From an uncultured Candidatus Saccharibacteria bacterium (GTDB lineage Bacteria; Patescibacteriota; Minisyncoccia; UBA6257; Colwellbacteraceae), in the NCBI GenBank assembly GCA_964609135.1, contig CAZSQQ010000001.1:1-44665 (forward strand): 44,665 nt of DNA, given 5' to 3'. Below the pieces are notes generated by a model that was not told the DNA's origin, searched no databases, and was given only the letters and a program-made list of their open reading frames with translations. The translations under genes and the position numbers were made by a program. How positions within the stretch are numbered: position 1 is the stretch's first letter; every line of letters starts with the position of its first letter. Below, one piece after another: positions 1-44,603 of this stretch.

Positions 1-735
1 GAGATAGAAAAAGTAAGGCAATCTGGCAAGATTGCCGCTCGCGTTTTAAGGAGACTTAAAGACGCGGCCCGGCCCGGCATTTCGACATTTAGTTTAGATA
101 AATTGGCGAGAGAACTCATTGCCGAAGGGGGAGGGAAACCAGCTTTCCCGGGTTATCGGCCTCAAGGCGCGAGACGTCCGTATAGGTTTGCCATTTGTGC
201 TTCTCTAAACGAGGGCGTCGTTCACGGTTTGCCTTCACCCTATAGATTGAAGTCCGGAGACGTTCTAAAAATTGATTTGGGAGTTGATTTTCAAGGCGGG
301 ATAAGCGATACGGCGGTTACGATTCCCATGGGGAGTGTTCCCAAAAATGTTTTGAATCTCATTAAGGCAACCGAAAGTGCCTTAAGAGAAGGAATTAGAG
401 TTGTGAAGCGCGACAAGAGAGTAGGAGATATCGGCTTTGCGATTGAGAGGACTGTTACTGCCGGCGGCTTCAAAGTCATTAAAGGCCTCACCGGTCATGG
501 GGTGGGTCTGGAGCTCCACGAGGAGCCTACCATTTATAATTACGGTAAGCCGGGCAGTGGCATGGTTTTGAAAGAAGGAATGATTTTAGCGATTGAACCT
601 ATTACCAGCGTCTCTACCGGCGATATTATTCAGCTTAAAGACGACAGCTTTGTCACCTCTGACAAAAGTATCTCGGCCCACTTCGAGCACACGGTTCTCA
701 TAACCAAGAAGGGAGCAGAAGTTCTGACTGCTTGA
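1..735 (+). CDS. map: Methionine aminopeptidase type I (5'-truncated by window edge)
   Basis: Frame is open from base 1 (EIEKVRQSGKIAARVL...). Motifs S-x-N-EGVVHGLP, DLG...D-TA, GHGVG..LHEEP, AIEP and SAHFEHTV. Confidence 0.97.
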   Translation, partial: EIEKVRQSGKIAARVLRRLKDAARPGISTFSLDKLARELIAEGGGKPAFPGYRPQGARRPYRFAICASLNEGVVHGLPSPYRLKSGDVLKIDLGVDFQGGISDTAVTIPMGSVPKNVLNLIKATESALREGIRVVKRDKRVGDIGFAIERTVTAGGFKVIKGLTGHGVGLELHEEPTIYNYGKPGSGMVLKEGMILAIEPITSVSTGDIIQLKDDSFVTSDKSISAHFEHTVLITKKGAEVLTA

Positions 736-760
736 CACTAAAACCCATATATTATATACT
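732..760 (+). promoter_or_regulatory. sigma70-type promoter for accessory cassette 1
   Basis: TTGACA (732-737), 17-nt spacer, TATACT (755-760); the -35 overlaps the map stop codon. Confidence 0.75.
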
Positions 761-774
761 GTCTATGTATAATA

Positions 775-784
775 GTTCTTTAAC
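775..784 (+). promoter_or_regulatory. boxA-like element GTTCTTTAAC
   Basis: Close to the rrn boxA consensus (TGCTCTTTAACA), 14 nt after the -10; identical copy at 21938-21947. Confidence 0.55.
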
Positions 785-808
785 GTTGGTTCAGATGATG
801 AGGCGAGC

Positions 809-832
809 CCGCCTTCGCTAAAGCTTCGGCGG
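809..832. repeat. REP-like palindrome CCGCCTTCGCTAAAGCTTCGGCGG
   Basis: Its reverse complement matches 36082-36105 at 23/24 nt. It sits in the loop of a long hairpin (797-866). Confidence 0.75.
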
Positions 833-928
833 AAAAGCGTTTTGGCGGTGGAGGGCTCGTCTCATCGGGAGATGGGTAAATAATGGCGGGCCTTCGGGCA
901 AGCCAAAAACAAAAGGAGGGTGACCCGT

Positions 929-1804
929 ATGTCCGGGGAACCCAGGCTTCAAAACATCGAGTTTGGAGATCTTAACTCCACTCTCGAGCATCTCTCACAG
1001 CGCGGCATTACCCAGGAGCACTTCAGCCGAATCAGAAAGGATCGCGGCTTCGCGCGTCGCGTGACGAAGGCGATCCGCGATGATTCCCCGAAGAAGGGAC
1101 CGATCTCCCTTGCGGAAGCTCGTGAGCTTATGGGAGAGGCGAACATCTTCGGTCCCAAGGATTGGGAGAAGTACTTCGGTGTGAAATTCACCGAGGAAGA
1201 GCTTGCTGAACTCGGCAAGTTCCCTTGGGGAGAGGACGTCCTCGACCAGCCGTTCATCGCGCCTAAGACCGTCGCCGAAACGCATCAGGCGTTCGTGGGA
1301 CTTTCGGTTCTCGGCGGTAGGAAGCTCACCATCGCGGAGTGGTCCGCGCTGAAGCCCATCAAGACGCTCCGTTTCAGCTATAGCGATGAGGAACGCGCGA
1401 TAGCCTTAGGAAACGGCGACATGACTAAGGGAGGTCCGTTCGCTACCACTGCGGCGTGTCGTTTCGGCTGGTACCTGGTCGCTCGTGAACCGTTTCCCAA
1501 CGTTCCCGGACACCCCAAGTGGCTGGCCATCAATAGCCAGTTGAGGCAGCGAGGGTACCAAGCTCTCCGTGCTGTCGAAGAGACGACGCGCGTCATCCTC
1601 TTCGGGCTGAAGAACGGGTTGCCATACCCGGGGGGAGCTGATTCCGTGGACATCGTTTTCCCCGACAAGACACCACAAGGCAAGTGGGTCGTCATGGAGA
1701 TGCTGGGTTGGGCGAGTAGCCCCCCAACGTACGAGCTCATTTTCTACAACCGGGAGTGGATGGGCAGTACAGACGACCGCATTAGCATCTCTCGCGAGAT
1801 CTGA
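929..1804 (+). CDS. Hypothetical protein, GC-rich accessory cassette 1
   Basis: Long ORF with GC3-rich codons; SD AAGGAGG at 913-919 favours ATG 929 over GTG 920. No family recognised with confidence. Confidence 0.8.
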   Translation: MSGEPRLQNIEFGDLNSTLEHLSQRGITQEHFSRIRKDRGFARRVTKAIRDDSPKKGPISLAEARELMGEANIFGPKDWEKYFGVKFTEEELAELGKFPWGEDVLDQPFIAPKTVAETHQAFVGLSVLGGRKLTIAEWSALKPIKTLRFSYSDEERAIALGNGDMTKGGPFATTAACRFGWYLVAREPFPNVPGHPKWLAINSQLRQRGYQALRAVEETTRVILFGLKNGLPYPGGADSVDIVFPDKTPQGKWVVMEMLGWASSPPTYELIFYNREWMGSTDDRISISREI

Positions 1805-1826
1805 ACTCGTTCACGCGTCCCTCACG

Positions 1827-1870
1827 CCTTTGGCGGGAACATCTCCCGCCAGAGGTGGTGGGGGATTTTA
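1827..1870 (+). terminator. Intrinsic terminator / convergent hairpin
   Basis: TGGCGGGA-ACATC-TCCCGCCA stem (1831-1851) with extension, followed by a T-rich tract. Confidence 0.7.
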
Positions 1871-3178
1871 TATTTCTCTTTTAAACAACCCTGAAGGGTT
1901 GCTGAAGTAAACCTGATTGGTTAATTTGTCATAAACGTACTTTTTGACTTCAAGCCCAATGGGATAAATGTTTTGGGGTTTCTCTTCATCAATTTCGGCA
2001 AAAAACAAGGTTCCATTATCTTCAAGGAAAAGGTGGGCATCATCCCGGTACCAAGCTAAGTTTTTGAAATTAGCGTTAGGGACCGGGTCCATCTCAACAA
2101 GTCTGTCTGCATCCAATCTATAAATTCCAATCTTGCCGCCGACATCCAAGAAACTCAAGAATTTTGAATTGTAAGAAAAAGAAAAGTCTCTGGCATTGCC
2201 CAATTTTTTCGACTGCATCCGCTTTTTATCAAAGAAAGTCAGAGTGTCATTGTCTTCCAGGATGCCCAGCGCATCTTGCGACGGCGAGACTTCGAATTTG
2301 ATTATTGGTGAAGTTATGGGAAGCGTGATTAAAGTATCCTCCCTGTTCCTTAGGGGCAGATTGTAGCGAAAGAGGTAGTTCTTGTTATCTATCCAGAAGA
2401 GGTCGGACTTGGCCAAGGCAAAGTCTTTGACGCCTGTCGCAATTTGCTCGAGCGTCAGCCTTTCAATATCCAAACTGTAGAGAGTTGACTCCGTTTTTAC
2501 GATGAATTTTCTATCGTTATATTCTAAGGGCTCGATTTTTGAGATGTTGACCACCCCCGGAAGCTCCAGTTTTGACTCTTTTAAATTGTTGAATGTTAAG
2601 CTTAGATTCAAAGAGGAATTCAGATCGGAAAGGCTGGAGAAGTAATAATTGCCGGTCTTCACGCTTCTCGTTATGACCGATCCGCTATTCTGCAGTTTCA
2701 CCACTTCGGTTCCCAAGATCTTTTTGTCGTTGTAGGACAAGCCGCCATCATTATTTAAAACCAAATGATTGTTCTTGACATAAAAGTCCGGTGTGGATTC
2801 TCCTATCCTCTCCGGGGCTTTTAGGGGAACGAGAACGATTTTATTGAAAACTGATACTGTTTGAGGCAAGACGTCGGTCTCTTTTTGCCAGTCAAGATAG
2901 CCATTTTTGGAGACAATTATCCTATAGCGATCCGGGGACAAGTTATTTATGAAAACACCTGTTTGCAGAAGCCCGGTTCCCTTTTTTACGATCGAGCCGT
3001 TCAACTTTACCTGCACGTCAGTTGGATCGGATTCAATGTAGATCCCGCCGGTTCGAACGAAGCTCAAGGTCTTCCACTCGACTCTTACGCCGGCCGAATA
3101 TAAGATAAGAGTCGCCCCCACGATAAGGAATGAAACCGAGAGGGTGAGAAAGAGAAATCTTCTGGTTTTAAGAGTCAT
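1868..3178 (-). CDS. Membrane-anchored PEGA-domain protein with probable beta-propeller C-terminus
   Basis: N-terminal TM helix; PEGA-like segment IYIESDPTDVQVKLNG...L.P..Y.I.VSK.GY..W; repetitive beta-strand C-terminus. Confidence 0.8.
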   Translation of the reverse strand: MTLKTRRFLFLTLSVSFLIVGATLILYSAGVRVEWKTLSFVRTGGIYIESDPTDVQVKLNGSIVKKGTGLLQTGVFINNLSPDRYRIIVSKNGYLDWQKETDVLPQTVSVFNKIVLVPLKAPERIGESTPDFYVKNNHLVLNNDGGLSYNDKKILGTEVVKLQNSGSVITRSVKTGNYYFSSLSDLNSSLNLSLTFNNLKESKLELPGVVNISKIEPLEYNDRKFIVKTESTLYSLDIERLTLEQIATGVKDFALAKSDLFWIDNKNYLFRYNLPLRNREDTLITLPITSPIIKFEVSPSQDALGILEDNDTLTFFDKKRMQSKKLGNARDFSFSYNSKFLSFLDVGGKIGIYRLDADRLVEMDPVPNANFKNLAWYRDDAHLFLEDNGTLFFAEIDEEKPQNIYPIGLEVKKYVYDKLTNQVYFSNPSGLFKREI

Positions 3179-3199
3179 TGTTATCTATAATATAACCGG

Positions 3200-19899: not shown

Positions 19900-19910
19900 G
19901 GAATTAAAAT

Positions 19911-20126: not shown

Positions 20127-20161
20127 ACAAAAGGCCGAAGAAATGATTGGATAATAAGTAA

Positions 20162-21892: not shown

Positions 21893-21947
21893 TTGACAAA
21901 ACCCAAGTTTTTATTATACTTCTAGGCTAATTACACTGTTCTTTAAC
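21893..21947 (+). promoter_or_regulatory. sigma70 promoter plus boxA-like element of cassette 2
   Basis: TTGACA (21893-98), 16-nt spacer, TATACT (21915-20), GTTCTTTAAC (21938-47). Confidence 0.7.
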
Positions 21948-22052
21948 GTCTCTGGATGTGACGCTAACTGCTGGGCAGGAAAGGGTTTGTGCAATTACAG
22001 AAATCTTTTCTTGCCTAGCAGAAAAGTGTTGAAAGAGAGGGGGCGAACCGCC

Positions 22053-22325
22053 ATGGCGATCCAGACGACAAAGCGGGGCGCCTCCGAGCGCCTCTGTCAG
22101 AGCTGCGGGGACAATCTCCGGTTCCCAGTACTGCCACCTCTTCTGATTCTTCAAGGACCGGATGGGAAATAGGAGGTGTTAGGACCTCTCTGCGACAACT
22201 GTCACAGTGAGAGATTCGGAACTGCGGAAGCCTGCTACACGAGAGATAAGGCGGACAAGCGAGTCTCTGCGCTGAACAGAGGTCTGATTACCGGGTATCG
22301 CAACTGGTACTCAGACCGCGACTAG
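22053..22325 (+). pseudogene. Zinc-ribbon-like small protein interrupted by an in-frame TAG (cassette 2)
   Basis: MAIQTTKRGASERLCQSCGDNLRFPVLPPLLILQGPDGK*EVLGPLCDNCHSERF...SDRD*: two CxxC motifs in one frame either side of TAG 22170-72. Confidence 0.6.
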
Positions 22326-22523
22326 CGTGTCACATCCTGCACTGCAAGGCGTTGAGGTGAACAACGTCCCAAGAAGCACTGATGACCAAAGACGAGAAAG
22401 GGGCCTTCCTCCCAGACTCTCTAGGCCTAGGTGCGTGCAAAACCGGGGATGAGCTGGAGGGTAGAGGTGATCTGCAATTGAGTGCGGGACCACCGACCCT
22501 CCTGCCTCTCCGGCTCACATCCA

Positions 22524-22569
22524 TGCCCAAGGAGGGAGTGGGCCCGCCACAAGCCCACTCCCTCGGGCA
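22524..22569 (+). terminator. Strong hairpin closing the cassette 2 region
   Basis: GAGGGAGTGGGC (22532-43) / GCCCACTCCCTC (22553-64), 12-bp stem. Confidence 0.65.
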
Positions 22570-22589
22570 CCAGATTTTGAAAATTTCTC

Positions 22590-25665: not shown

Positions 25666-25715
25666 TTGACAATTTTTCCCGCCTCGCTATTGTGAAACTA
25701 GCGCCGTTCTTTCAG
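25666..25715 (+). promoter_or_regulatory. sigma70 promoter plus boxA-like element of cassette 3
   Basis: TTGACA (25666-71), 16-nt spacer, TATTGT (25688-93), GTTCTTTCAG (25706-15). Confidence 0.6.
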
Positions 25716-25737
25716 AGGTTTTGGCAAGGTGGGGGAG

Positions 25738-25851
25738 GTGAATCCAATATCGCAATTTTGGCGCTATCTCCAGGTCGTCGGCTGTTTCGTCATCTTCACG
25801 CTCGTGCTCTTCGCCGTGGCGATAGTCTCAGCCTACTGCGCGAGCCGCTGA
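25738..25851 (+). CDS. Small hydrophobic single-TM peptide (37 aa from GTG; cassette 3; not in ORF track)
   Basis: MNPISQFWRYLQVVGCFVIFTLVLFAVAIVSAYCASR*; GC3-rich codons; purine-rich SD region upstream; followed by hairpins. Confidence 0.55.
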   Translation: MNPISQFWRYLQVVGCFVIFTLVLFAVAIVSAYCASR

Positions 25852-25911
25852 AACACCTTGTCATTTCCTCATCCCATCTGGGAGACGGCTTTGGCCGTCT
25901 CATCATCACGC

Positions 25912-25943
25912 GAGGGAGGCTCTGTCCCCACAGAGCCTCCCTC
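25912..25943 (+). terminator. 14-bp hairpin ending cassette 3
   Basis: GAGGGAGGCTCTGT-CCCC-ACAGAGCCTCCCTC. Confidence 0.65.
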
Positions 25944-25983
25944 AACGCATTCCCTTAGAGGGACTTTTAAATTCTGGAAATGC

Positions 25984-26044
25984 TTGACTTTTTAGAAAAA
26001 CTGTGCTAACTTTTAATCAGCAGTAAAAGTCTCGCACCTTGACA
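25984..26044 (+). promoter_or_regulatory. sigma70 promoter plus boxA-like element of cassette 4
   Basis: TTGACT (25984-89), 17-nt spacer, TGn-TAACTT (26007-12); GCACCTTGACA (26034-44); SD AAGGAGGTGA. Confidence 0.55.
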
Positions 26045-26068
26045 TAGCATAGGAAGGAGGTGAGTAGC

Positions 26069-26818
26069 ATGGCTACCACCCGCACCGAGCACACTACACA
26101 CGCTCCCGCCGCGATCGTTTTCCCGTGGCAGTTGCCGCGGCTGGCACTCTTCACTCTTACCATCTTCACGATCGTGGCCATTAGTGTGGTCTCGCTCGTG
26201 GTGGTGGCAGTGCTCCCAGTGTTCCCGAAGAGTTCTGGAGACGCATCTGCAGTCGTCGCCGCACCGACACCGACCGCAACCCCCGTGACCACGGCAATCC
26301 CGACTGCGACGCCGGCTCCGACGGCAGTTCCTACTCCGTCGCCGACGCCCACGCCGAGCCCAACACCAGCACCGAGTCCCACTCCCGAGAACCGACCCGG
26401 ACAGGCAGGCACCTGCCTCGTCCTGGAACAGCAATACTGCGGAACTGGCGACACCGTCCTCGGTTTCCTTGCAGGCTTTAAGCTTCCCGCTGGGACACCG
26501 TTGTTCGCACCGTTTGATGGTTATGTCGCAAGCTCTTCTGTGAAATATTCGAAGAGCGGCGACGGATATCGTCAGATGGTCGTCTACGTATCTCCGGACG
26601 GGGATTACCTGCACAAGACGCTTCTCGTAGCTATGTCTCCAGTCGAGCTTACCGTCTCTTCTGGTCCAGTCAAGAAGGGCCAGTTGGTCGGCAGGACCAC
26701 TGGAGCCATCGTTGCAGAAGCCGGTGACTACAACTTCGTTGCCGTCGCTTCAAAGCAGTTCGGCTCTCCGGACACTGGGTTCGTGGATCGCTTCTCCGCA
26801 GAGCTCCTTCGCAAGTAG
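26069..26818 (+). CDS. Membrane-anchored protein with Pro/Thr linker and degenerate M23-peptidase-like domain (GC-rich cassette 4)
   Basis: TM helix, PTPT repeats, GTPLFAPFDGYV and VKKGQLVG (M23-like fold motifs); no HxxxD/HxH zinc ligands. ATG follows the SD; the track start is 26060. Confidence 0.75.
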   Translation: MATTRTEHTTHAPAAIVFPWQLPRLALFTLTIFTIVAISVVSLVVVAVLPVFPKSSGDASAVVAAPTPTATPVTTAIPTATPAPTAVPTPSPTPTPSPTPAPSPTPENRPGQAGTCLVLEQQYCGTGDTVLGFLAGFKLPAGTPLFAPFDGYVASSSVKYSKSGDGYRQMVVYVSPDGDYLHKTLLVAMSPVELTVSSGPVKKGQLVGRTTGAIVAEAGDYNFVAVASKQFGSPDTGFVDRFSAELLRK

Positions 26819-27436
26819 GGCTAAGCCGAAAGGCGAAGCTTTTTCCTCGCGTAACAATCGCGCGAGGAGGCCCCAGCGCGTTTGCTGGGGCCTCTTCATT
26901 TGTGTTATTATGTGTTACAATCATTCAAAAGTGAATCTTTCTGGGATAAGAAAATATTCAATATTTTTTTTGGCGATTTTTATTTTTGGGGTAATCTTCT
27001 TTTTATTAAGAAATCCAATCAGAAGTGAGATTTCAAATCTTTTTGCTAAAAAGCCCGGCACCTGTTTGGTGCTGGAACAGCAATACTGCGGAACTGGCGA
27101 CACCGTCCTCGGTTTCCTTGCAGGCTTTAAGCTTCCCGCTGGGACACCGTTGTTCGCACCGTTTGATGGTTATGTCGCAAGCTCTTCTGTGAAATATTCG
27201 AAGAGCGGCGACGGATATCGTCAGATGGTCGTCTACGTATCTCCGGACGGGGATTACCTGCACAAGACGCTTCTCGTAGCTATGTCTCCAGTCGAGCTTA
27301 CCGTCTCTTCTGGTCCAGTCAAGAAGGGCCAGTTGGTCGGCAGGACCACTGGAGCCATCGTTGCAGAAGCCGGTGACTACAACTTCGTTGCCGTCGCTTC
27401 AAAGCAGTTCGGCTCTCCGGACACTGGGTTCGTGGA
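26423..27436 (+). repeat. 365-bp perfect direct repeat (26423-26787 = 27072-27436)
   Basis: Compared base by base; offset 649 nt; both copies lie in frame inside genes. Confidence 0.95.
26867..26900 (+). terminator. Terminator hairpin of cassette 4
   Basis: GAGGCCCCAGC-GCGTTT-GCTGGGGCCTC followed by TTCATTT. Confidence 0.7.
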
Positions 27437-29233: not shown

Positions 29234-29241
29234 ACCAGGGC

Positions 29242-29882: not shown

Positions 29883-29889
29883 AAGTGGA

Positions 29890-29924
29890 GAAGGTCTCGG
29901 CGGCAGTTTACCGCCGAGACCTTC
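29890..29924. terminator. Bidirectional terminator hairpin
   Basis: GAAGGTCTCGGCGG-CAGTTTA-CCGCCGAGACCTTC, 14-bp stem between convergent genes. Confidence 0.75.
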
Positions 29925-29970
29925 CGCTAAGATGGGATTGATGGGGATCTTATGTCCGCTGGACTGCTTG

Positions 29971-30444
29971 TCAGTTCTTGGGGTCTGGGTTCGGTGCGTC
30001 GCTGCAGTAGTTCTCGCAGGTTCCGCCGTCGCAGTCGGCCGCCGAGCGGACCTTCCACCACTTGGAGTTGATGCCACCGAACATCTTTGGCATCACTTCC
30101 AAGGTGTTGGCGTAGCTGTCGTGCATCACCTCGCGGGTCGGCCGGTGGTGGATGTATCCGCCGATCATGCCGCAGAAGCGGAAGTAGTCCGAGGTGAAAA
30201 GCACGAAAGCGTGCCACATGTCATCCAGATGCTTGCTCGGGGCGAAGCTGCGTGAGCGGTTACTGGCGCAGATCGCTAGGAACTTCTTGACCTCATCGAA
30301 CTGCTCTCGAGCATCTGCCTCAGAGATGTCATGCTCCTTGGCGAAACGCTCGATGAGCAATTCCGGTGGCGCGAAACGCATCACCCCTTCGAGGTCAAAG
30401 GGGAGCACAACGCGAGTACCTTGCTCTAGGACAACAACCGTCAT
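29971..30444 (-). CDS. GRDP-like (glycine-rich domain/DUF1399-type) protein with Cys-rich tail (GC-rich cassette 5)
   Basis: E.KKFL..., PS..LD.MWH.F.L.T..Y..FC....IHH.P pattern; SD AGGAGG. Confidence 0.7.
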   Translation of the reverse strand: MTVVVLEQGTRVVLPFDLEGVMRFAPPELLIERFAKEHDISEADAREQFDEVKKFLAICASNRSRSFAPSKHLDDMWHAFVLFTSDYFRFCGMIGGYIHHRPTREVMHDSYANTLEVMPKMFGGINSKWWKVRSAADCDGGTCENYCSDAPNPDPKN

Positions 30445-30573
30445 GTCGATCTCCTCCTAGACTTCAGAAACCCCACAATCCCTAAGGAACTACCATAAAG
30501 ATAGCAAATAAATGATATAAAGCAATCCTTGGCAATATCTTGAAAATACACTAAAGTTGTGATACAATGGCTC

Positions 30574-31064
30574 TGGTTGGTAATTCAGATAGTAGCTCCA
30601 AATCCCGCTTCTTATACGCCAATTTACGACAGCTCTTTTTATTGAAGCAGGACTGGAGAGGAAAGTCCGGACACCCGCCAATTTTGTCCGCCGCAGACGT
30701 TTACAAAATTGAGCGTCCCGAGTTTGTCGAGGGACATCCTTCGACGCTGCTCAGGATGCACGATTTTGCGACACCTGCGGTGGGCAAAATCGGCATTTGT
30801 AGCGGCTAACGGCCGTCGTCCGAAAGGACAGAGGTGCGAACAGTAACGTCCCGAACCGAAAGGTGAGGGAGAGCCCGATCCCAAGCTAGAAGGCTTAGCT
30901 CCGCTATAGGGATAAGAAAGCGGAGATGAAACGGCTAAATCCTTACTGGGTGCAAGGTCGCGCTCCGACCTCGGTCGGAGAGTACCGCTTGACTCCGAGA
31001 GTAATCGAGGAGCTTAGATAAATTACTATCGAGATACAGAATCCGGCTTACGAATTACCAACCA
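30574..31064 (+). ncRNA. rnpB: RNase P RNA
   Basis: GAGGAAAGTCCGGACAC, GGGTGCAAGG and ACAGAATCCGGCTTAC signatures; P1 pairing TGGTTGGTAATTC/GAATTACCAACCA; promoter TTGAAA-17-TACAAT; terminator 31067-31095. Confidence 0.96.
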
Positions 31065-36081: not shown

Positions 36082-36105
36082 CCGCCGAAGCTTTAGCGCA
36101 GGCGG
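36082..36105. repeat. REP-like palindrome CCGCCGAAGCTTTAGCGCAGGCGG
   Basis: Reverse complement of 809-832 at 23/24 nt. Confidence 0.75.
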
Positions 36106-36155
36106 GGGCCATAACTTCGCTAACTAAAATAACAATGATAGAATAAAGCAAACAT

Positions 36156-36314
36156 ATGGCTTTGTCAACTTGGAAGAAAAAATTAAGTGAACCGGCTGTC
36201 AAAATAGGTATTTTGATCTTCTTAGTGACTTCTTTAGCCTTTGGCTTAGGTTACTTGTCAGCCAAGAACTGGAATCCGGCGCCGATTGTTATAGAGAAAA
36301 ACTCAAGTAATTGA
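36156..36314 (+). CDS. Small membrane protein (52 aa; not in ORF track)
   Basis: MALSTWKKKLSEPAVKIGILIFLVTSLAFGLGYLSAKNWNPAPIVIEKNSSN*. Confidence 0.6.
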   Translation: MALSTWKKKLSEPAVKIGILIFLVTSLAFGLGYLSAKNWNPAPIVIEKNSSN

Positions 36315-36362
36315 CGTTTCCCGGATAAAATTGTATAGTGAATCTCTACGCTGTTCTTCACA
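36311..36362 (+). promoter_or_regulatory. sigma70 promoter plus boxA-like element of cassette 6
   Basis: TTGACG (36311-16), 17-nt spacer, TATAGT (36334-39), GTTCTTCACA (36353-62). Confidence 0.6.
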
Positions 36363-36399
36363 ACCGCGGACGCGCTAAGGCGTCAGAAAGAGACTAAAG

Positions 36400-36846
36400 A
36401 TGACGATTTTCGTGCAAGAAGAAGGGGAGCGTTGGCACGAGTCAGCTCTCGGGGAGGCTCTAGCCATGCTTCTCTCTCAAGATGGAGAAGAAATCACGAT
36501 TGCCATCTCCAACCCCACTTTCTACAGACGCCCCCATGAGCCAGCCATTCTTATTCGAAGGAGTGGCGATCGGCTCGTGACCGAGCTCAGTGCGCCTAGG
36601 GCTGGAGTAATTCCTGTTCCGAACCGGCTGGTCATCTCAACTCCTCATCCTGATCCAGGAGAGCGAGAGTGGGGTCTCCTGCGTTTCACTACCGATCTCC
36701 CAGTCCACAACAGGGAGGACATACAGGAGGCAGAAGCACTCCTCGATGACCTCGGCTTGCCGAGAGGGGAACTGCTAACTGTCCTCAGGGTCGTGAACGA
36801 ACTCCAAGCCCGCCGCGAAGCCAAAGAAGCGGCCGTACCTCGATGA
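36400..36846 (+). CDS. Hypothetical protein, GC-rich cassette 6
   Basis: 148-aa ORF between its own promoter and a UUCG-capped hairpin (36845-36879). Confidence 0.7.
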   Translation: MTIFVQEEGERWHESALGEALAMLLSQDGEEITIAISNPTFYRRPHEPAILIRRSGDRLVTELSAPRAGVIPVPNRLVISTPHPDPGEREWGLLRFTTDLPVHNREDIQEAEALLDDLGLPRGELLTVLRVVNELQARREAKEAAVPR

Positions 36847-36886
36847 CCCCGAGCAGGACTTCGGTCTTGCGCCGGGGTCTTGCTAT

Positions 36887-37654
36887 TTATAAGTAGCCGA
36901 CTTTCTTCAGCCAATAATCGTTTTCCCACTCCCATAGCTTCTTGGCACCCAAGAAGGCGGCATAATCATCCTGCCAGTAGGGCATTTCCTTCAACTCAAC
37001 TTCGCCTCGGAGAGGGGACCATTCGTGATCGCAGTCATCGGCAATCTTCTTCCCGTTCCTATAGGGCAGCTTGATTTTCTCTCTTCCGCCCTTGATTCTC
37101 AAAGTCGCACCGCACTTTAGGCAAACCTGATTCTGATCAATTCTTAAAATCCACCTTGTTTGCAAATTTTTAAACTGGTCCAAGAGTGATGCAAAATAAG
37201 CCGCCGTCTGCAAATCGTAATCGCGGTATATGGCCTGCGAAGTTTTAATATCGAGAACTCCAAATTTCCCGTCAATTAAGGCTAATGAATCGATCGTGCC
37301 GGCGTAGCGCTCCGAAAAATGAACAATTCTTTTCTCAACCCAATCCGGATCAACTTGAACGTTATTTTCTTCCAAGAACTTTTTCAGACCCTCTATGGCC
37401 GGCATAATTGAAGGATCAACTTCAGGTTCTTTTCCAATAAGAACCGCTTCGGCCGCTTCATGAACGGCGGTTCCCTCATCGGCAGACTGCTTTTTTATAG
37501 ATTCCCCTTGGGCAAAATTATCAAGGTCGGCATAATACTTGTAAAGAGCCGGTTTGGCCTTGATGTTCACGATGCTTGTGACCCTGGGGTACCAAACTCC
37601 ATCGATGGTATAGCCGTTAGTGCCTTTAAAATGTTCATCATCGTTGTAATACAT
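36887..37654 (-). CDS. PD-(D/E)xK exonuclease (phage/MGME1-like) with a Zn-finger insertion
   Basis: YPRVTSI, GT.VH, EKR, YAGTID...D.KTS and Q.AAY motifs; CLKC...CDH insertion. Confidence 0.8.
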   Translation of the reverse strand: MYYNDDEHFKGTNGYTIDGVWYPRVTSIVNIKAKPALYKYYADLDNFAQGESIKKQSADEGTAVHEAAEAVLIGKEPEVDPSIMPAIEGLKKFLEENNVQVDPDWVEKRIVHFSERYAGTIDSLALIDGKFGVLDIKTSQAIYRDYDLQTAAYFASLLDQFKNLQTRWILRIDQNQVCLKCGATLRIKGGREKIKLPYRNGKKIADDCDHEWSPLRGEVELKEMPYWQDDYAAFLGAKKLWEWENDYWLKKVGYL

Positions 37655-41632: not shown

Positions 41633-42719
41633 GCTTGCTTATATTTAGCATAACGCCCGCCATGGTCAAATAAACCGCGAGAGCGGTGCCTCCATAGCTT
41701 ATAAAGGGCAGTGGAACGCCGGTTAGGGGCACGATCCCGGAATTGGAACCTATGTGAATGAATGCCTGAAGCCCGATAACGGTACTGAACCCCACCAGCA
41801 TAAGTTTTCCGAAGCGGTCGGTGGCGTTTTTGGCGAGCAGATAGCCCCGGGCTACCAGCGCAAAGAAAACGGCAATCAAAATCACGGATCCGATAAATCC
41901 GAATTCTTCGGCAATGATGGCAAAAATCGAATCTCCGATCCTCTCCGGCAGGTAATTCTTTGAATGAGACTGTCCATAACCTACCCCGGTCAGTCCCCCC
42001 GATCCTATGGTGATAAGCGCTTGATTGATTTGGTATCCCGCGCCTTGCGCGTCGGCTTGGGGATTTAAGAAAGTTATAAACCTTTGAAACCGATAAGGCG
42101 TGAAAAGCACCAGAGCCGTAAAGCCCAGGGCGATTATTATCCCCAGATAGAAGACGTACCGTTTTTTAGCGCCGCTTACGAAATAAGTTGCCATGGCTGA
42201 AACGAAAACTATGGCGGCGGTACTGGTAGATTTCTGAAAAAGAAATATAAATTCCAAAAAACCAAGAATTGAAATGAAGGGCAGAAAACCTTCAAAGAAA
42301 TTATGAGATCTTATGGAGCCCCTCACGCTCGAGAGCCAGGCAGCCAGATAAATGATAAAAGTAATCTTTAGAATTTCTCCCGGCTGGAAAACTATTGAGC
42401 CGAACTGAAGCCAGCGTTTGGCGCCGCCGGAACTGAATCCCAAGGGAGTGAGCGTAAGAAAAAGCGCCATAAGAGTGATAAAGAGCAAGATTGGCGCCCA
42501 TTTCTTATACCTGTTGTAGGGAATAAAAAAACCCGCCAGGAGTCCCGCTATTCCCAGGGAAAGCCCGTAGAGAACTTGGTGGCGCAAATAATAATAAGTG
42601 TCATTGAATTTAAGTTTACCCAAGTCTGACGAGGCAGATGCCAAGGCGACAATTCCAAAAACGGTGAGCAAAAGAACCGAAACAAGAATTACATAATCAA
42701 TTCTTTCACTCCTAGCCAT
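41625..42719 (-). CDS. ftsW: SEDS peptidoglycan polymerase FtsW
   Basis: GAKRW, QPGE.LK, YQINQALI.IGSGG, LPE...D.IFA and PLTGVPLPFISYGG motifs; adjacent to murG. Confidence 0.93.
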   Translation of the reverse strand: MARSERIDYVILVSVLLLTVFGIVALASASSDLGKLKFNDTYYYLRHQVLYGLSLGIAGLLAGFFIPYNRYKKWAPILLFITLMALFLTLTPLGFSSGGAKRWLQFGSIVFQPGEILKITFIIYLAAWLSSVRGSIRSHNFFEGFLPFISILGFLEFIFLFQKSTSTAAIVFVSAMATYFVSGAKKRYVFYLGIIIALGFTALVLFTPYRFQRFITFLNPQADAQGAGYQINQALITIGSGGLTGVGYGQSHSKNYLPERIGDSIFAIIAEEFGFIGSVILIAVFFALVARGYLLAKNATDRFGKLMLVGFSTVIGLQAFIHIGSNSGIVPLTGVPLPFISYGGTALAVYLTMAGVMLNISKHA

Positions 42720-42725
42720 GACTTG

Positions 42726-44210
42726 TCACTTACGCCTCAATACCTCTCCTCTTCCGCCTAATTCCATTCTTTTGCCGCCGAGCACGGTTTCTTTCACTTG
42801 GTAGTCGGTTTTGCCGAGAAGGACCAAATCGGCCACCTTGCCTTCCTTCACCACTCCCCTGCCCTTCAGATCAAGGAAACTCGCGGGAACCGAAGTGATT
42901 TTCTTCACAGCCGTTTCTATCGGAAAAAGCTTATTGCCCATAACTATTTCCAGGAATTTGGGAAAGGTATTGGTGGAGCGGTCGTGCTTAAGACATTTCG
43001 GAGTATCGGGCAACGAGTTGCCGTTAGAACTGATGAAAGCCCTATCCTCTTTCATCGTTTGAAGCAACATTTCGGAATTGATGTTTCGATAAAAAACTGT
43101 GGCTTTCATTTTTGTTATAGCCATCACTTTTAAGAGCCCCTCGGCGGGAGAGAGATCTGTGCCTGCGATTATTTGAGACAAAGTCTTGCCGATAAAATAG
43201 TCGGCTTTATCAGCAGTTGCAATTTTTAAATCTTCCGGATTTAAGTCTTTTAATTCTTTTACTATCTTCTTCACGTTTTCTTTATGTCTCAAGTTCTCAA
43301 GAGTTTTTTCCAGATTTTCTTCCTGTACCCACTTGGGTAAAATCATGTATATGGGAAGTACACTTGTATCATAGGGGTAAACGTCAAAGTGGAGGTTAGC
43401 TGTCGCCGAATTATTTTTGATTACTTCCAGCGCTTGGCTGAATTGATTTTCAAAACCGTTAATCGGACGAAAGTGGCTGACAACAGTTTTAATCCCCGTG
43501 TCCTTGGCAATTTTCAGAGTTTCCTCAATCGAGCCCAATATTCCCTCGGTTTCGCTTCGGAGATGCGTCGTATAAATACCATGAACTTTCTTCAGGAGCC
43601 CTACCAATTCTCTAATTTCTCTTATTGAAGTAGAACGACTGTGGAGATATTCAAGTCCGGTAGATAGCCCGAAGGCACCTTCATCCAGGGCGCGGCTTAA
43701 AACTTTTTTGAAAACCCATAATTCCTTTAAAGTTAAATCCCTATCCTCATCGCCGACAAGGGCTCTTTTCACGGTTCCGTGACCCGCTAAAGTGCCGAAA
43801 TTAACTCCCAGCGGCAGCTTATCCAATGATGAGAGAAATTCTCGAGTCGTATGCCAGTTCACGTTAATCGAATGCGGGTCAGCCCATTTTCTTATTGATT
43901 CCAGGGTCCCGTACAAAAGCGGTGCCAAGGATGATCCGCAGTGTCCTCCCAAAATTGTCGTCACTCCTTGGGCGGTGAAATCAGTCTGTCGAGGATTCGT
44001 AAAAAGCGTAAGATAGTGATCGGAGGTGGCATTAACGTCAATAAAGCCGGGGGTAAGGTAGTTTCCCAAGCCGTCAATCACCAGGTCGGCGTCTTTGCCT
44101 TTAAGATTGCCGATGGCGGAGATCAGATTTTTCTGCACCAAGACATCCGCTTTGTACGGAGCCAGGCCCTCACCATCAACAATCTGGACTTCCTTGATTA
44201 GGAGACTCAT
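42726..44210 (-). CDS. N-acyl-D-amino-acid deacylase (D-aminoacylase)-like amidohydrolase with degenerate metal site
   Basis: ADVLV...I.AIG, PGFID, QGVTT..G.CG.S, GAFGLSTGLEY, THLRSE and G..ADLV motifs. Confidence 0.85.
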   Translation of the reverse strand: MSLLIKEVQIVDGEGLAPYKADVLVQKNLISAIGNLKGKDADLVIDGLGNYLTPGFIDVNATSDHYLTLFTNPRQTDFTAQGVTTILGGHCGSSLAPLLYGTLESIRKWADPHSINVNWHTTREFLSSLDKLPLGVNFGTLAGHGTVKRALVGDEDRDLTLKELWVFKKVLSRALDEGAFGLSTGLEYLHSRSTSIREIRELVGLLKKVHGIYTTHLRSETEGILGSIEETLKIAKDTGIKTVVSHFRPINGFENQFSQALEVIKNNSATANLHFDVYPYDTSVLPIYMILPKWVQEENLEKTLENLRHKENVKKIVKELKDLNPEDLKIATADKADYFIGKTLSQIIAGTDLSPAEGLLKVMAITKMKATVFYRNINSEMLLQTMKEDRAFISSNGNSLPDTPKCLKHDRSTNTFPKFLEIVMGNKLFPIETAVKKITSVPASFLDLKGRGVVKEGKVADLVLLGKTDYQVKETVLGGKRMELGGRGEVLRRK

Positions 44211-44286
44211 ACCAAAGTCTATTATATATTGAAAGCCAGATTTACAGCAGTAAGGTGGAGATTAAAGCGCGCCAGACCACGGGGGC

Positions 44287-44603
44287 TTGACTTATTTTTA
44301 TGATTGTAGTAAGGTGATAGTATCGCGTGGAGAGGGGACGTGAAAAGTATGCCGATTTGATCGGCAAGAAGCGGCCTCTGAACGCAGAGGGTCCGCACAA
44401 CTTCAGTCGCGTCCGCCTCGTCGCGAGCACGCGACCCAGCACCTCGAAAAAAGGAGGGCACGGAATTGGAGAACTTCCAGCTCATCGACACGACGTAGCG
44501 GAAGAAGACGCCAGACCGAAGCAAGCTGATGGGGCAGCCTCTGCTCCGGTCCGCCAAAACAAGTCCCTTCCCATCAGGCCGGCTCCCCCCATGGAGCCGG
44601 CCT
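44287..44603 (+). other. Probable decayed GC-rich cassette 7 (promoter, coding-like remnant, terminator)
   Basis: TTGACT-17-TAAGGT; GC-rich coding-like sequence without a clean ORF; AGGCCGGCTCC/GGAGCCGGCCT hairpin at 44576-44603. Confidence 0.4.

What the first reader, a model, noticed from the sequence alone, without database searches (positions are those of the whole stretch)
732..44603. Recurrent 'boxA + closed-loop' GC-rich single-gene cassettes: a pre-rRNA-like architecture wrapped around mRNAs
Seen in sequence: six or seven GC-rich islands sit between AT-richer host genes, each with its own sigma70 promoter and terminator. Six carry a boxA-like element just after the -10: GTTCTTTAAC at 775 and 21938, GTTCTTTCAG at 25706, GCACCTTGAC at 26034, GTTCCTTAG on minus at 30490-30482, and GTTCTTCACA at 36353. 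In four, the segment right after boxA is complementary to the segment at or just after the ORF stop codon: 782-796 with 1799-1811 (13 bp, 2-nt bulge); 21954-21966 with 22323-22337 (13 bp, 2-nt bulge); 25715-25731 with 25854-25870 (10+4 bp); 30466-30482 with 29934-29950 (7+5+3 bp). A fifth, lacking boxA, pairs 44327-44339 with 44563-44574. Most cassette genes have strong SDs, whereas several host genes look leaderless. Established knowledge: rrn boxA binds NusB-NusE, and pre-rRNA leader/trailer stems are RNase III substrates. Inference: a dedicated expression or processing format for acquired genes, through Nus-assisted looping, stem processing or stabilisation, SD sequestration, or even an RNA-level mobile unit. 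I do not know of a description of this architecture for mRNAs.
Basis: partly seen in the sequence, partly recalled or inferred. Interest (0 to 1): 0.85.

Follow-up and report, generated by a model that had tools for sequence, protein, structure and literature searches.

The report
BoxA-like closed-loop mRNA of hypervariable-protein gene

Summary
Partly confirmed.

**What holds up**
- All motifs and complementary arms are at the stated coordinates.
- The islands are real. I1, I2, I3, I4 and I7 have GC3 of 0.65-0.78 against about 0.5 in host genes. They have strong Shine-Dalgarno sites, while host genes have almost none.
- A boxA-like motif (one mismatch or fewer to GYTCTTTAANA) lies 13-18 nt after a strong -10 in I1, I2 and I3. 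I8 has a weaker form.

**What is weak**
- In single-sequence shuffle tests the leader/trailer pairing is marginal: I2 and I7 give p about 0.015-0.03, the others are not significant.
- The I7 pairing is absent from its homologues.
- I2 has no homologues, so it cannot be tested.

**Island I1 (732-1875)**
- More than 27 distant relatives keep the same layout: promoter, boxA-like motif, 5' arm, a covarying leader hairpin, SD, ORF, and a 3' arm at the stop codon.
- The 8-15 bp leader-trailer helix covaries, and its wobble pairs favour the sense RNA.
- These relatives are target genes of diversity-generating retroelements (DGRs). 112 of 119 differences between the template repeat (TR) and variable repeat (VR) fall at TR adenines, and bAvd and RT genes lie next to them.
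- The window's copy has no TR and looks like an orphan.

**Reading**
"A format for acquired genes" is not supported. A Nus-assisted, rRNA-like closed mRNA is plausible but untested.

The parts
732..760 (+). I1 promoter: TTGACA (732-737), 17-nt spacer, TATACT (755-760)
   Evidence: Promoter scan gives 11 of 12 matches. The sequence was read.
775..785 (+). I1 boxA-like motif GTTCTTTAACG, about 8 nt into the predicted transcript
   Evidence: One mismatch to GYTCTTTAANA. The homologous motif is kept in about 20 relatives, as GTTCTTTGAAAA, GCTCTTTGATAA or GTTCATTGAAAA.
782..796 (+). I1 5' arm of the leader-trailer helix (core GGTTCAGAT at 788-796, plus AACG at 782-785)
   Evidence: Pairs with 1799-1811. 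The homologous helix covaries in 15 loci.
797..866 (+). I1 leader hairpin P1 (GATGAGGCGAGC ... GCTCGTCTCATC). Its tip carries a 25-nt inserted hairpin element at 808-832.
   Evidence: RNAalifold on 19 leaders predicts 23 pairs, 13 of them with compensatory changes. The element also occurs at 36082-36106 and in L019.
867..931 (+). Rest of the I1 5' UTR: conserved GGGAGATGGGTAAA segment, SD AAGGAGG (913-919) and the ATG at 929, which sits in the loop of a small stem
   Evidence: Alignment A3. Anti-SD duplex -12.3 kcal/mol. The 200-nt window 801-1000 folds with z=-5.2.
929..1804 (+). I1 ORF, 291 aa. Divergent member of a family of DGR variable (target) proteins. GC3 is 0.71.
   Evidence: Homologues. 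TR/VR pairs and bAvd plus RT in the relatives. No Pfam, PHROG, NCBIfam, PADLOC or PDB match.
1799..1811 (+). I1 3' arm ATCTGAACTCGTT, containing the stop codon TGA (1802-1804)
1826..1875 (+). I1 terminator-like hairpin (GGCGGGA at 1832-1838 with TCCCGCC at 1844-1850), followed by a T-rich stretch
   Evidence: Sequence. The 200-nt window 1701-1900 folds with z=-5.6. The hairpin is conserved in L005.
21893..22575 (+). I2. Promoter at 21893-21920; boxA-like motif at 21938-21948; 5' arm at 21954-21966; long hairpin at 21968-22021; SD and ATG at 22053; ORF to 22325 with an in-frame TAG at 22170; 3' arm at 22323-22337; GC-rich tail and terminator hairpin at about 22533-22565.
   Evidence: The helix is in the MFE fold of the whole transcript, z=-6.5. 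Shuffle p is 0.015-0.03. No homologues.
25666..25965 (+). I3. Promoter at 25666-25693; boxA-like GTTCTTTCAGA at 25706-25716; 5' arm at 25715-25731 abutting the SD; possible 37-aa hydrophobic ORF at 25738-25851; 3' arm at 25854-25870; two strong hairpins and a terminator.
   Evidence: The helix is in the MFE fold, z=-5.6. Shuffle p is 0.06-0.24.
25984..26900 (+). I4. M23-peptidase-like secreted protein (ORF 26069-26818) with its own promoter, a strong SD and a terminator at 26864-26897. No credible boxA and no closing helix.
29889..30545 (-). I7. Weak boxA-like GTTCCTTAG at 30490-30482; 5' arm at 30482-30466; SD; ORF 30444-29971 (family PF27765, UCP032817-like); 3' arm at 29950-29934; terminator hairpin at 29889-29927, shared with the convergent methyltransferase gene.
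   Evidence: Shuffle p is 0.015-0.025. The pairing is not conserved in L012, L013 or L015.
36311..36885 (+). I8. Promoter at 36311-36339; degenerate boxA-like GTTCTTCACAA at 36353-36363; small leader hairpin; weak SD; ORF 36400-36846; terminator. No closing helix.
44288..44610 (+). I9. Promoter-like site, then a roughly 250-nt highly structured RNA closed by 44327-44339 with 44563-44574, then a terminator hairpin. No ORF of 20 aa or more on this strand and no boxA.
   Evidence: The fold has z=-5.9 with the closing helix in the MFE structure. No Rfam match.

Best explanation
The window comes from a small-genome bacterium, probably of the Candidate Phyla Radiation (CPR, Patescibacteria-like). 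Its ordinary genes are AT-richer and mostly lack a Shine-Dalgarno site or any leader. A minority of genes use a different format: own sigma-70 promoter, long structured 5' UTR, strong SD, GC-rich third codon positions and a strong terminator.

**Island I1 is the informative case.** It is a divergent, apparently orphan member of a family of variable (target) protein genes of diversity-generating retroelements (DGRs). Across that family the transcript begins with a boxA-like sequence (G[T/C]TCTTT[G/A]A[A/T]AA). A short 5' arm follows, then a covarying leader hairpin, further structure, the SD and the ORF. In two of the three subgroups, the 5' arm pairs over 8-15 bp with the sequence at or just after the stop codon. 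That sequence is also the 3' edge of the DGR variable repeat.

**Shown:** the elements, their order, their conservation, the covariation of both helices, the sense-strand bias of the wobble pairs, and the DGR context.

**Inferred mechanism.** NusB-NusE and the other Nus factors load on the boxA-like RNA just after initiation. They protect the long untranslated, structured leader from Rho. As in rRNA operons, they hold the 5' end near RNA polymerase until the 3' arm is made. The mRNA then closes into a loop, which would stabilise it or gate its translation or processing.

**Other islands.** I2 and I3 have the same layout in this genome, but only single-sequence support. I3 also looks like a type I toxin mRNA. 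The I7 pairing is probably chance. I4 and I8 do not have the closing helix. I9 is a separate structured non-coding RNA.
For: **Gene classes.** GC3 and SD strength separate the island genes from host genes.

**boxA-like motif.** It sits 13-18 nt after the -10 at 4 of 15 strong promoters, all of them islands. I1, I2 and I3 are within one mismatch of the published consensus GYTCTTTAANA (PMC5725501).

**I1 family.** It has 27 metagenome loci plus L005-L011. Promoter, boxA-like motif, arm, hairpin and 3' UTR are conserved.

**Leader hairpin.** 23 pairs, 13 with compensatory changes.

**Leader-trailer helix.**
- 79.5% of cells pair, against 70.5% in shuffles (0 of 500 reach it).
- The covariation score is 0.343 against 0.191 (0 of 500).
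- Sliding the register drops pairing to 55% or less. Eight of 14 pairs have double changes.
- L034 carries an A-U to U-A swap.
- There are 23 G.U cells against 7 A.C cells, which favours the sense RNA.
- An unanchored 40 x 54 nt scan returns the same helix as the best duplex in 14 of 14 loci, with p of 0.11 or less in 12.

**DGR identity of the family.** 112 of 119 TR/VR mismatches fall at TR adenines in six loci. bAvd and RVT_1 genes lie alongside, and synteny is conserved.

**Format is gene-specific, not element-wide.** In the same cassettes avd and RT are AT-rich and leaderless, while the target gene is GC-rich and SD-led.

**rRNA precedent.** A boxA followed by a leader-trailer helix is documented in PMC10250234.

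**Folds.** The helices are in the MFE folds of I2, I3 and I9, with z of -5.6 to -6.5.
Against: - No binding or transcript data exist. NusB/NusE, Rho, RNase III and the organism's own rrn boxA could not be examined.
- The motif could be a DNA operator rather than an RNA site.
- One subgroup of the I1 family (six loci) lacks the 5' arm and shows no significant helix, although it keeps the 3' sequence. So the helix is dispensable, and the 3' sequence is conserved for other reasons too: it codes, it lies in the IMH (initiation of mutagenic homing) region, and it belongs to the CTTGA repeats.
- I anchored alignment A4 by eye on the complementary cores, which favours pairing in the four core columns.
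- In the I2 MFE fold the boxA itself is paired.
- 8-15 bp is much shorter than rRNA leader-trailer helices.
- In the window itself the I1 helix is not significant against shuffles (p=0.08-0.46).
- The I7 helix is not conserved.
- The window's I1 has no TR, and its closest orthologue is frameshifted. The local copy may therefore be decaying.
Confidence: 0.5

Rival explanations
1. Apart from I1, the leader/trailer complementarities are chance matches between GC-rich UTRs. The islands are simply unrelated orphan or accessory genes with ordinary promoters and terminators, and there is no shared format.
For: - Shuffle p-values are only 0.015-0.7 per cassette. Non-cognate leader x trailer pairs often score as well as cognate ones (matrix).
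- The I7 helix is absent in homologues at 50-65% identity.
- I4 and I8 have none.
- The arms differ in length, bulges and distance from the stop codon.
Against: - The combined p is about 0.01-0.02.
- In I2 and I3 the 3' arm starts within 3 nt of the stop codon, and the 5' arm follows the boxA-like motif directly, as in the I1 family where the helix is proven.
- The helices are in the MFE folds of whole transcripts that fold 5.6-6.5 sd better than shuffles.
- The motif is positionally enriched.
Confidence: 0.3
2. The I1-family arms act on DNA, not RNA. They would be inverted repeats or repeated operator sites recognised by a protein, for example part of DGR target recognition or a recombination site. 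On this reading the boxA-like motif is a promoter-proximal operator.
For: - The 3' arm straddles the point where VR/TR homology ends, beside the conserved hairpin downstream of VR. From my own knowledge, in the Bordetella phage DGR an IMH and a downstream DNA hairpin define the target.
- In one subgroup the arm GGTTCAGAA / TTCTGAACC is nearly palindromic, so it could equally be a repeated dimer-binding site.
- The 3' sequence stays conserved where the 5' arm is missing.
Against: - Mismatches in the helix are 23 G.U against 7 A.C. This asymmetry is expected only for pairing of the sense RNA.
- The second subgroup uses non-palindromic arms (TTCAAGGTT / AACCTTGAA) in a shifted register.
- The distance from boxA to the -10 varies from 5 to 17 nt, which is atypical for an operator fixed to a promoter.
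- No recombinase gene is associated.
Confidence: 0.12
3. The islands are recent horizontal acquisitions from a GC-richer donor. Their promoter, SD, UTR structure and GC content are simply inherited from that donor.
For: - GC3 of 0.65-0.78 and strong SDs stand out in a genome of low GC3 that lacks SDs.
- The proteins are orphans.
- I4 has an actinobacterial-style Pro/Thr linker.
- A 51-nt direct repeat (29241-29291 and 30539-30589) flanks the methyltransferase + I7 pair.
Against: - I1-family genes are GC-rich relative to their flanks in many different genomes, yet sit in conserved synteny with an AT-rich, leaderless avd and RT.
- I1 is at the same locus in L005 at only 48% protein identity.
- I7 keeps its neighbour and its excess GC in L012 and L013.
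- There were no hits in viral contigs.
- Long persistence without amelioration argues for selection on composition, not recent transfer.
Confidence: 0.15
4. I3 specifically is a type I toxin-like module. A small hydrophobic peptide mRNA is kept translationally inert by a 5'-3' long-distance interaction, as in hok and AapA1. It has nothing to do with Nus factors.
For: - A 37-aa hydrophobic ORF lies at 25738-25851 (read).
- The 5' arm abuts the SD and the 3' arm starts 3 nt after the stop codon.
- In the MFE fold the helix closes the mRNA and the SD is paired locally.
- Closed toxin mRNAs are documented in PMC6733600 and PMC9841398.
Against: - No antisense promoter or antitoxin RNA was found.
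- The start codon (GTG) directly abuts the SD, so translation is uncertain.
- There are no homologues to test.
- Shuffle p is only 0.06-0.24.
Confidence: 0.25

Closest known systems
rRNA operon leader: boxA (with boxB and boxC) plus the leader-trailer helix flanking 16S rRNA, transcribed by the Nus-factor antitermination complex
   Same: - A boxA-type sequence lies at the very 5' end of the transcript.
- Within a few nucleotides comes a strand that pairs with a sequence just past the 3' end of the functional unit, closing about 1 kb of RNA.
- The leader also holds hairpins.
- The unit is GC-richer than the genome, as stable RNA genes are in AT-rich genomes.
   Different: - The enclosed unit is a protein-coding ORF with an SD.
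- The helix is 8-15 bp, not tens of bp.
- The 3' arm overlaps the stop codon.
- A third of the family lacks the helix.
- There is no evidence for RNase III cleavage or Nus binding.
BoxA-regulated mRNAs and non-coding transcripts (E. coli suhB and other genes, PMC5725501; boxA upstream of CRISPR arrays, from my own knowledge)
   Same: A boxA consensus sits in the 5' UTR of a non-rRNA transcript, and a long untranslated stretch is exposed to Rho.
   Different: - Those boxAs lie within about 50 nt of the start codon and act by translational repression, or they protect untranslated arrays.
- None is described with a leader-trailer helix.
- None is described in a CPR-like lineage or on a DGR target gene.
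Phage lambda nut sites (boxA, spacer, boxB hairpin)
   Same: The order is boxA, then a short spacer, then a conserved hairpin near the 5' end of the transcript.
   Different: - The hairpin here is long (about 60-110 nt) and has no N-like partner.
- There is no phage context.
Diversity-generating retroelements (target gene with a 3' variable repeat, IMH, downstream hairpin, TR RNA, Avd and RT), known to be common in CPR genomes (PMC8144416, PMC11661182)
   Same: - The I1 family carries a VR at its 3' end.
- A downstream TR differs almost only at adenines.
- bAvd and RT genes lie alongside, and a conserved hairpin follows the VR.
   Different: - The window's I1 has no TR, Avd or DGR-type RT within 44.6 kb, and it lacks the post-VR hairpin.
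- The variable protein matches no Pfam C-type-lectin model.
- As far as I could find, the conserved boxA-like leader and the leader-trailer helix are not part of any described DGR.
Type I toxin mRNAs closed by a 5'-3' long-distance interaction (hok fbi/tac, H. pylori AapA1); other 5'-3' UTR pairings such as S. aureus icaR and B. subtilis hbs (the last two from my own knowledge)
   Same: A long-range helix joins the 5' UTR to the region just past the stop codon, closing the mRNA and potentially controlling translation and stability. I3 also encodes a small hydrophobic peptide.
   Different: - I1 encodes a 291-aa protein.
- No antitoxin RNA was found.
- No boxA is known in those systems.

Membership tests
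rrn-type boxA (NusB-NusE binding site) | Sequence matches the boxA consensus (GYTCTTTAANA in gamma-proteobacteria, PMC5725501) | tested here: met
   I1 at 775 and I2 at 21938 (GTTCTTTAACG) and I3 at 25706 (GTTCTTTCAGA) each have one mismatch. I8 has about two mismatches. The I7 match is weak. I4 does not match. Family members carry GTTCTTTGAAAA or GCTCTTTGATAA.
rrn-type boxA (NusB-NusE binding site) | Lies in the transcribed leader, on the sense strand, shortly after the start site | tested here: inconclusive
   The motif lies 13-18 nt after the predicted -10 hexamers in the window and 5-12 nt after them in relatives. The start sites are predicted, not mapped.
rrn-type boxA (NusB-NusE binding site) | Bound by NusB-NusE; the same motif is present in the organism's own rrn leader; nusB is present | not testable with these tools
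   The window contains no rRNA operon, nusB, nusE or rho. The one genome-contig scan found no close relative.
pre-rRNA-type leader-trailer helix | Leader strand just after boxA pairs with a strand just past the 3' end of the enclosed unit, with covariation | tested here: met
   Met for the I1 family, subgroups A and B, in 15 loci. Not met in subgroup C or in the I7 family. Untestable for I2, I3 and I9.
pre-rRNA-type leader-trailer helix | Long duplex (about 20 bp or more) that serves as an RNase III substrate | tested here: not met
   The contiguous helices are 8-15 bp. Cleavage could not be tested.
Diversity-generating retroelement target gene | 3' variable repeat with a cognate template repeat that differs at adenines | tested here: not met
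   In the window no TR exists for 1600-1815 on either strand. In relatives the feature is met: 112 of 119 mismatches fall at TR adenines in L018, L020, L023, L025, L034 and L035. So the window's I1 is a homologue of DGR targets, not a demonstrable active target.
Diversity-generating retroelement target gene | Adjacent DGR reverse transcriptase and accessory protein (Avd) | tested here: not met
   The window's only RT (18034-19899) is a UG13a defence-type RT, E=7.7e-65. Among the window ORFs scanned, none matched an Avd family. Relatives carry bAvd (E=1.7e-15 and 7.9e-18) and RVT_1.
Type I toxin-antitoxin (I3 only) | Small hydrophobic toxin ORF, an mRNA closed by a 5'-3' interaction, and an antisense RNA antitoxin | tested here: inconclusive
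   A 37-aa hydrophobic ORF and a closing helix are present. No antisense promoter was found. There are no homologues.
Known RNA families (Rfam 15) | Covariance-model match to the leader or to I9 | tested here: not met
   The window and 14 related loci gave no match, apart from tRNA-Gln and a sub-threshold RNase P hit.

The most novel reading that the evidence does not exclude
In SD-less, largely leaderless CPR-like bacteria, a special class of genes is expressed through an rRNA-like pathway. DGR variable proteins are the clearest example. A boxA at the 5' end would recruit the Nus antitermination complex. That complex would carry the 5' end along with RNA polymerase and close the mRNA through a leader-trailer helix placed exactly at the 3' boundary of the DGR variable repeat. 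If so, Nus-mediated RNA looping is not restricted to ribosome biogenesis. The closed target transcript, or the transcription complex held at the IMH boundary, might even take part in DGR retrohoming, whose cDNA integration step remains unexplained.
Probability: 0.15. Interest if true: 0.85.

Novelty: new variant of a known kind. Interest (0 to 1): 0.6.

Why it matters
- **Wider role for boxA and the leader-trailer helix.** If the boxA-like element and the helix work as in rRNA operons, this is the first protein-coding transcript family using that architecture. It would extend Nus-factor RNA looping beyond ribosome assembly.
- **New element in DGR cassettes.** It adds a conserved cis-RNA layer to the target genes of CPR-type DGRs: a roughly 150-200 nt structured leader and a helix ending at the VR boundary. 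The step by which DGR cDNA replaces the VR is still unknown.
- **Two gene formats in one genome.** The split is sharp. One class is AT-rich, leaderless and SD-less. The other is GC3-rich, SD-led and has structured UTRs. The split holds even inside a single DGR cassette. It is a testable clue to how translation initiation and mRNA stability are organised in these reduced genomes.
- **Practical use.** The leader can be turned into a covariance model to find DGR target genes, including orphan ones.

Tried and rejected
**Statistics that did not work**
- RNAduplex on whole 60 x 76 nt windows, and a lenient Smith-Waterman score, were both uninformative. Shuffles scored as high because long, loopy alignments dominate. 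I replaced them with short-window duplex scans.

**Searches that found nothing useful**
- The genome-contig scan with PGK returned only a Streptococcus.
- Exact look-up of the I1 protein returned only the same organism in three samples.
- The viral-contig scan for the I1 family had no hits.
- The homologue search for the I2 ORF found none.
- Pfam, PHROGs, NCBIfam, PADLOC and a PDB profile search gave no family for I1, I2, I3, I7 or I8 in the local libraries.
- The literature search for boxA in Patescibacteria returned only unrelated BOX-PCR papers.

**Unusable result**
- The AlphaFold model of I1, built from a 4-sequence alignment, had pLDDT 36.8. No fold search was run on it.

**Ideas rejected**
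- *The I4/I5 repeat as a TR/VR pair.* The copies are 100% identical over about 364 nt.
- *The window RT as a DGR RT.* It is UG13a defence-type.
- *rRNA downstream of I1-family genes.* It is the DGR TR RNA.
- *A common ancestry of all island promoters.* The MAFFT alignment was uninformative.

Full report
**Setting**

The window averages about 44-47% GC. It carries housekeeping genes of a small-genome bacterium: map, murA, two mreB, mreC, PBP2, rodA, murG, pgk, tpi, frr, proS, gltX, fmt, def, rplI and rpmA. It also holds one tRNA-Gln and an RNase P RNA that scores below the Rfam gathering threshold (30740-31058, E=1.3e-9). The gene upstream of the window is the secY-adk-map end of the ribosomal-protein cluster. 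A CPR/Patescibacteria origin is an inference. It rests on gene content, on the near absence of SD sites, and on relatives coming from 0.1-um groundwater filtrates.

**Check of the observation**

The GC-rich islands are real but heterogeneous:
- I1, I2, I3, I4 and I7 have GC3 of 0.65-0.78, against 0.44-0.57 in host genes.
- I6 is GC-rich only at codon position 2.
- I8 is GC-rich mainly at position 1.
- One GC peak is the RNase P RNA gene.
- I9 has no ORF on its strand.
- The I2 ORF contains an in-frame TAG.

Anti-SD duplexes are -10 to -13.6 kcal/mol for I1, I2, I4 and I7. Nearly all host genes are weaker than about -6, and several have a -10 box directly before the ATG.

**The boxA-like motif**

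The published consensus is GYTCTTTAANA (PMC5725501). With up to one mismatch the window has 16 hits, against 12.2 +/- 3.6 expected, so there is no global enrichment.

Three of those 16 hits (775, 21938, 25706) lie 13-18 nt after the -10 of strong promoter-like sites. The degenerate I8 motif does the same. That makes 4 of 15 strong sites, and all four are islands. My binomial estimate from the window's own motif density is about 4e-5.

The I4 string is not a boxA, and the I7 string is weak. BoxA elements on mRNAs are already known from suhB and others (PMC5725501).

**Leader/trailer pairing from this window alone**

I used unbiased scans: the best duplex between any short windows of a 60-nt leader and a 76-nt trailer, against 200 dinucleotide shuffles.
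- I1 p=0.42, I2 0.03, I3 0.06, I4 0.70, I7 0.025, I8 0.53, I9 0.29.
- With a tighter 40 x 54 nt geometry, I2 and I7 give 0.015 and the rest exceed 0.2. Fisher combined p=0.011.

A sliding z-score map shows that island UTRs, the RNase P gene and the rpmA leader are the most structured parts of the + strand. From the window alone the closing helices are therefore suggestive, not established.

**Comparative evidence for I7 and I2**

I7 belongs to family PF27765. In L012 and L013 it keeps the same convergent TehB-like methyltransferase neighbour. It also stays GC-richer than its flanks: 0.60 against 0.39 in L012. None of L012, L013 or L015 has a leader-trailer helix. The I7 pairing is therefore probably chance, and the gene is not a recent single-gene acquisition.

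The I2 ORF has no homologues among 5.8 billion clusters.

**Comparative evidence for I1**

The protein is an orphan to Pfam, PHROGs, NCBIfam, PADLOC and PDB. It has an orthologue at the same map | I1 | PEGA locus in L005, at 48% identity and frameshifted. It also has more than 27 relatives at 28-37% identity in metagenome contigs.

Almost all of these relatives carry the same non-coding layout:
- a promoter, often TTGACTTTTTTTGACAGTTTGCTATAAT;
- a boxA-like motif 5-12 nt after the -10 (GTTCTTTGAAAA, GCTCTTTGATAA or GTTCATTGAAAA);
- a short 5' arm;
- a long hairpin, (A)TGAGACGAGC...GCTCGTCTCAT;
- further conserved structure;
- AGGAGG, and an ATG in the loop of a small stem;
- the ORF;
- a conserved 3' UTR with repeated CTTGA motifs, a small hairpin and a terminator.

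The long hairpin has 23 predicted pairs, 13 of them with compensatory changes. No Rfam family matches.

**The leader-trailer helix in the I1 family**

The segment between boxA and the hairpin pairs with the sequence at or just after the stop codon, around an invariant GGTT:AACC core.
- Subgroup A, which includes the window and L005, extends the helix to GGTTCAGAA:TTCTGAACC.
- Subgroup B extends it the other way, to TTCAAGGTT(T..):(..A)AACCTTGAA, reaching 10-15 bp.
- L034 has a double change, TTCTAGGTT:AACCTAGAA.
- L016, L019, L033, L035 and L039 differ by wobble-compatible transitions.

On an alignment anchored on the cores:
- 79.5% of cells pair, against 70.5% in column shuffles (0 of 500 reach it).
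- The covariation score is 0.343 against 0.191 (0 of 500).
- Eight of 14 pairs show double changes.
- Sliding the partner by one column drops pairing to 46-55%.

G.U cells outnumber A.C cells 23 to 7, as expected for pairing in the sense RNA and not for a DNA inverted repeat. Without any anchoring, the best duplex between the 40 nt before the hairpin and the 54 nt around the stop codon is this same helix in 14 of 14 loci, with p of 0.11 or less in 12.

There are caveats. I chose the anchoring. The sequences are related. Subgroup C (six loci) lacks the 5' arm and has no significant helix, although it keeps the 3' sequence.

It is therefore real, although it is not significant on its own.

**What the I1 family is**

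In seven loci a roughly 420-nt conserved non-coding block follows the gene. Its 3' part copies the 3' end of the ORF but is rich in AAC codons.

In the 115-nt core, 112 of 119 differences lie at adenines of the downstream copy (L018 21/21, L023 14/14, L025 21/21, L034 22/23, L035 15/16, L020 19/24). The C-termini of the proteins are hypervariable at exactly those positions.

A bAvd-like gene (E=1.7e-15 and 7.9e-18) and an RVT_1 gene follow, in synteny conserved across subgroups.

This is a diversity-generating retroelement, and the I1 family is its variable protein. DGRs are known to be common in CPR genomes (PMC8144416, PMC11661182).

Two further points:
- The 3' arm of the helix straddles the point where VR/TR homology ends.
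- Within the same cassettes avd and RT are AT-rich and leaderless, while the target gene is GC3-rich and SD-led with the structured leader. The unusual format therefore belongs to the gene, not to a foreign element.

**The window's own I1**

- No template repeat for 1600-1815 exists anywhere in the window on either strand.
- The post-VR hairpin of the family is missing (one search compared).
- Among the window ORFs scanned none matched an Avd family, and the only RT (18034-19899) is a UG13a defence-type enzyme next to a type IIG restriction-modification gene.
- The identical 291-aa protein occurs in three sequencing runs, and the closest orthologue is frameshifted.

I1 is best described as an orphan, possibly decaying, homologue of DGR targets that still keeps promoter, boxA-like motif, leader hairpin, closing helix, SD and terminator.

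**Mechanism**

*Shown:* the order, conservation and covariation of the elements, the RNA-strand bias, and the DGR context.

*Established knowledge:* in rRNA operons boxA recruits NusB-NusE and the other Nus factors. The strand just downstream (boxC) forms the leader-trailer helix with sequence past the 3' end of 16S, and that helix is essential (PMC10250234). BoxA complexes can also block or promote Rho and affect translation on mRNAs (PMC5725501).

*Inference:* in these genomes ordinary mRNAs are leaderless and translated from their 5' end. A 150-200 nt untranslated structured leader would be exposed to Rho. A boxA would protect it and keep the 5' end at the polymerase until the 3' arm emerges, closing the mRNA. 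The closed form could stabilise the message, gate translation (the start codon and SD sit in local structure) or mark a processing site.

I put about 0.5 on this overall picture.

**The other cassettes**

I2 and I3 follow the same order as I1: promoter, boxA-like motif, 5' arm, then a hairpin in I2, SD, ORF, and a 3' arm at the stop codon. They rest on one sequence each. I3 could equally be a type I toxin-like mRNA (PMC6733600, PMC9841398). I4 and I8 have no helix. I9 is a separate structured RNA of unknown kind.

One more promoter + AGTTCTTTAAC + SD + GC-rich ORF turned up by chance in L013. This hints that the format recurs in related genomes.

**Novelty and verdict**

DGRs, boxA on mRNAs and 5'-3' closed mRNAs are each known. 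I did not find their combination described: a conserved boxA-like 5' end, a covarying leader, and a leader-trailer helix at the VR boundary of DGR target genes. The same goes for the sharp two-format split of genes in one genome.

Its core idea holds for one family. Interest 0.6. Novelty: new variant of a known kind.

Noticed in passing
L018, L020, L023, L025, L034, L035, L037 (e.g. L023:2170-3422): These loci hold complete DGR cassettes. The order is target gene (VR), terminator, a roughly 250-nt conserved non-coding block, the TR, then divergent leaderless bAvd and RT genes. The conserved block upstream of the TR is presumably the DGR RNA scaffold and has no Rfam match.
   Followed up: partly
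window 808-832 and 36082-36106 (minus strand); L019:1290-1315: A 25-nt hairpin element, CCCGCCT(T/G/C)CGCTAAAGCT(T/A)CGGCGG, occurs in three places: the tip of the I1 leader hairpin, the leader of rpmA (L27), and the I1-family leader of an unrelated contig. It may be a small mobile hairpin or a protein-binding module.
   Followed up: partly
window 29241-29291 and 30539-30589: The promoter and first 20 nt of the RNase P RNA gene are duplicated (51 nt, 76% identity). The two copies flank exactly the methyltransferase + I7 gene pair, as if that pair had inserted at the 5' end of the RNase P gene.
   Followed up: no
window 30569-31058 (+): The RNase P RNA gene scores only 40.5 bits against bacterial class A (gathering score 100), and the match starts at 30740. 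This suggests an atypical or insertion-bearing RNase P RNA.
   Followed up: no
window 26424-26787 and 27073-27436: A 364-nt stretch is duplicated at 100% identity. It encodes an M23-peptidase-like C-terminal domain. One copy is fused to a GC-rich Pro/Thr-linker N-terminus (I4). The other is fused to an AT-rich membrane-anchor N-terminus (I5). This points to recent duplication or gene conversion. Both copies also fold unusually well (z of -4 to -5.5).
   Followed up: partly
window 15401-20340: An AT-rich island (30-39% GC) carries a type IIG restriction-modification gene, apparently split at about 17304-17383, and a 621-aa UG13a-class defence reverse transcriptase (E=7.7e-65).
   Followed up: partly
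window, many gene starts (e.g. murA 3200, pgk 22765, amidohydrolase 44210 on the minus strand, ctpA 34097): Host genes almost universally lack an SD. Many have a TATAAT-like box within about 10 nt of the ATG, which implies widespread leaderless translation.
   Followed up: partly
window 22590-22735 (+): A near-consensus promoter (TTGACT, 16-nt spacer, TATAAT) is followed by about 100 nt with no ORF and a strong terminator hairpin (AGCCCCGCCGTAAGGCGGGGTTT). This is a candidate small RNA with no Rfam match.
   Followed up: no
window 44325-44575 (+): I9 is a multi-branched RNA of about 250 nt with a closing helix. It folds at z=-5.9, has its own promoter and terminator, and contains only a 10-codon ORF after an AGGAGG. 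Its class is unknown.
   Followed up: partly
I1-family 3' UTRs (e.g. L029:2302-2360): Four or five CTTGA(A/G) repeats, spaced 8-9 nt apart, lie between the stop codon and the terminator, around the small hairpin GAGGG-CTTGA-CCCTC. They are conserved even where the 5' arm is absent. They could be a protein-binding array or part of DGR target recognition.
   Followed up: no
L013:140-240 (minus strand): A different gene in a related genome has a promoter, then AGTTCTTTAAC presented in the loop of a GGGCA/TGCCC stem, then a strong SD and a GC-rich ORF. This is an independent example of the boxA-like format.
   Followed up: no
window 36887-37654 (-): A 255-aa protein with no Pfam family gives a weak Cas4-like (PD-(D/E)xK nuclease) match in PADLOC (E=5e-5).
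   Followed up: no
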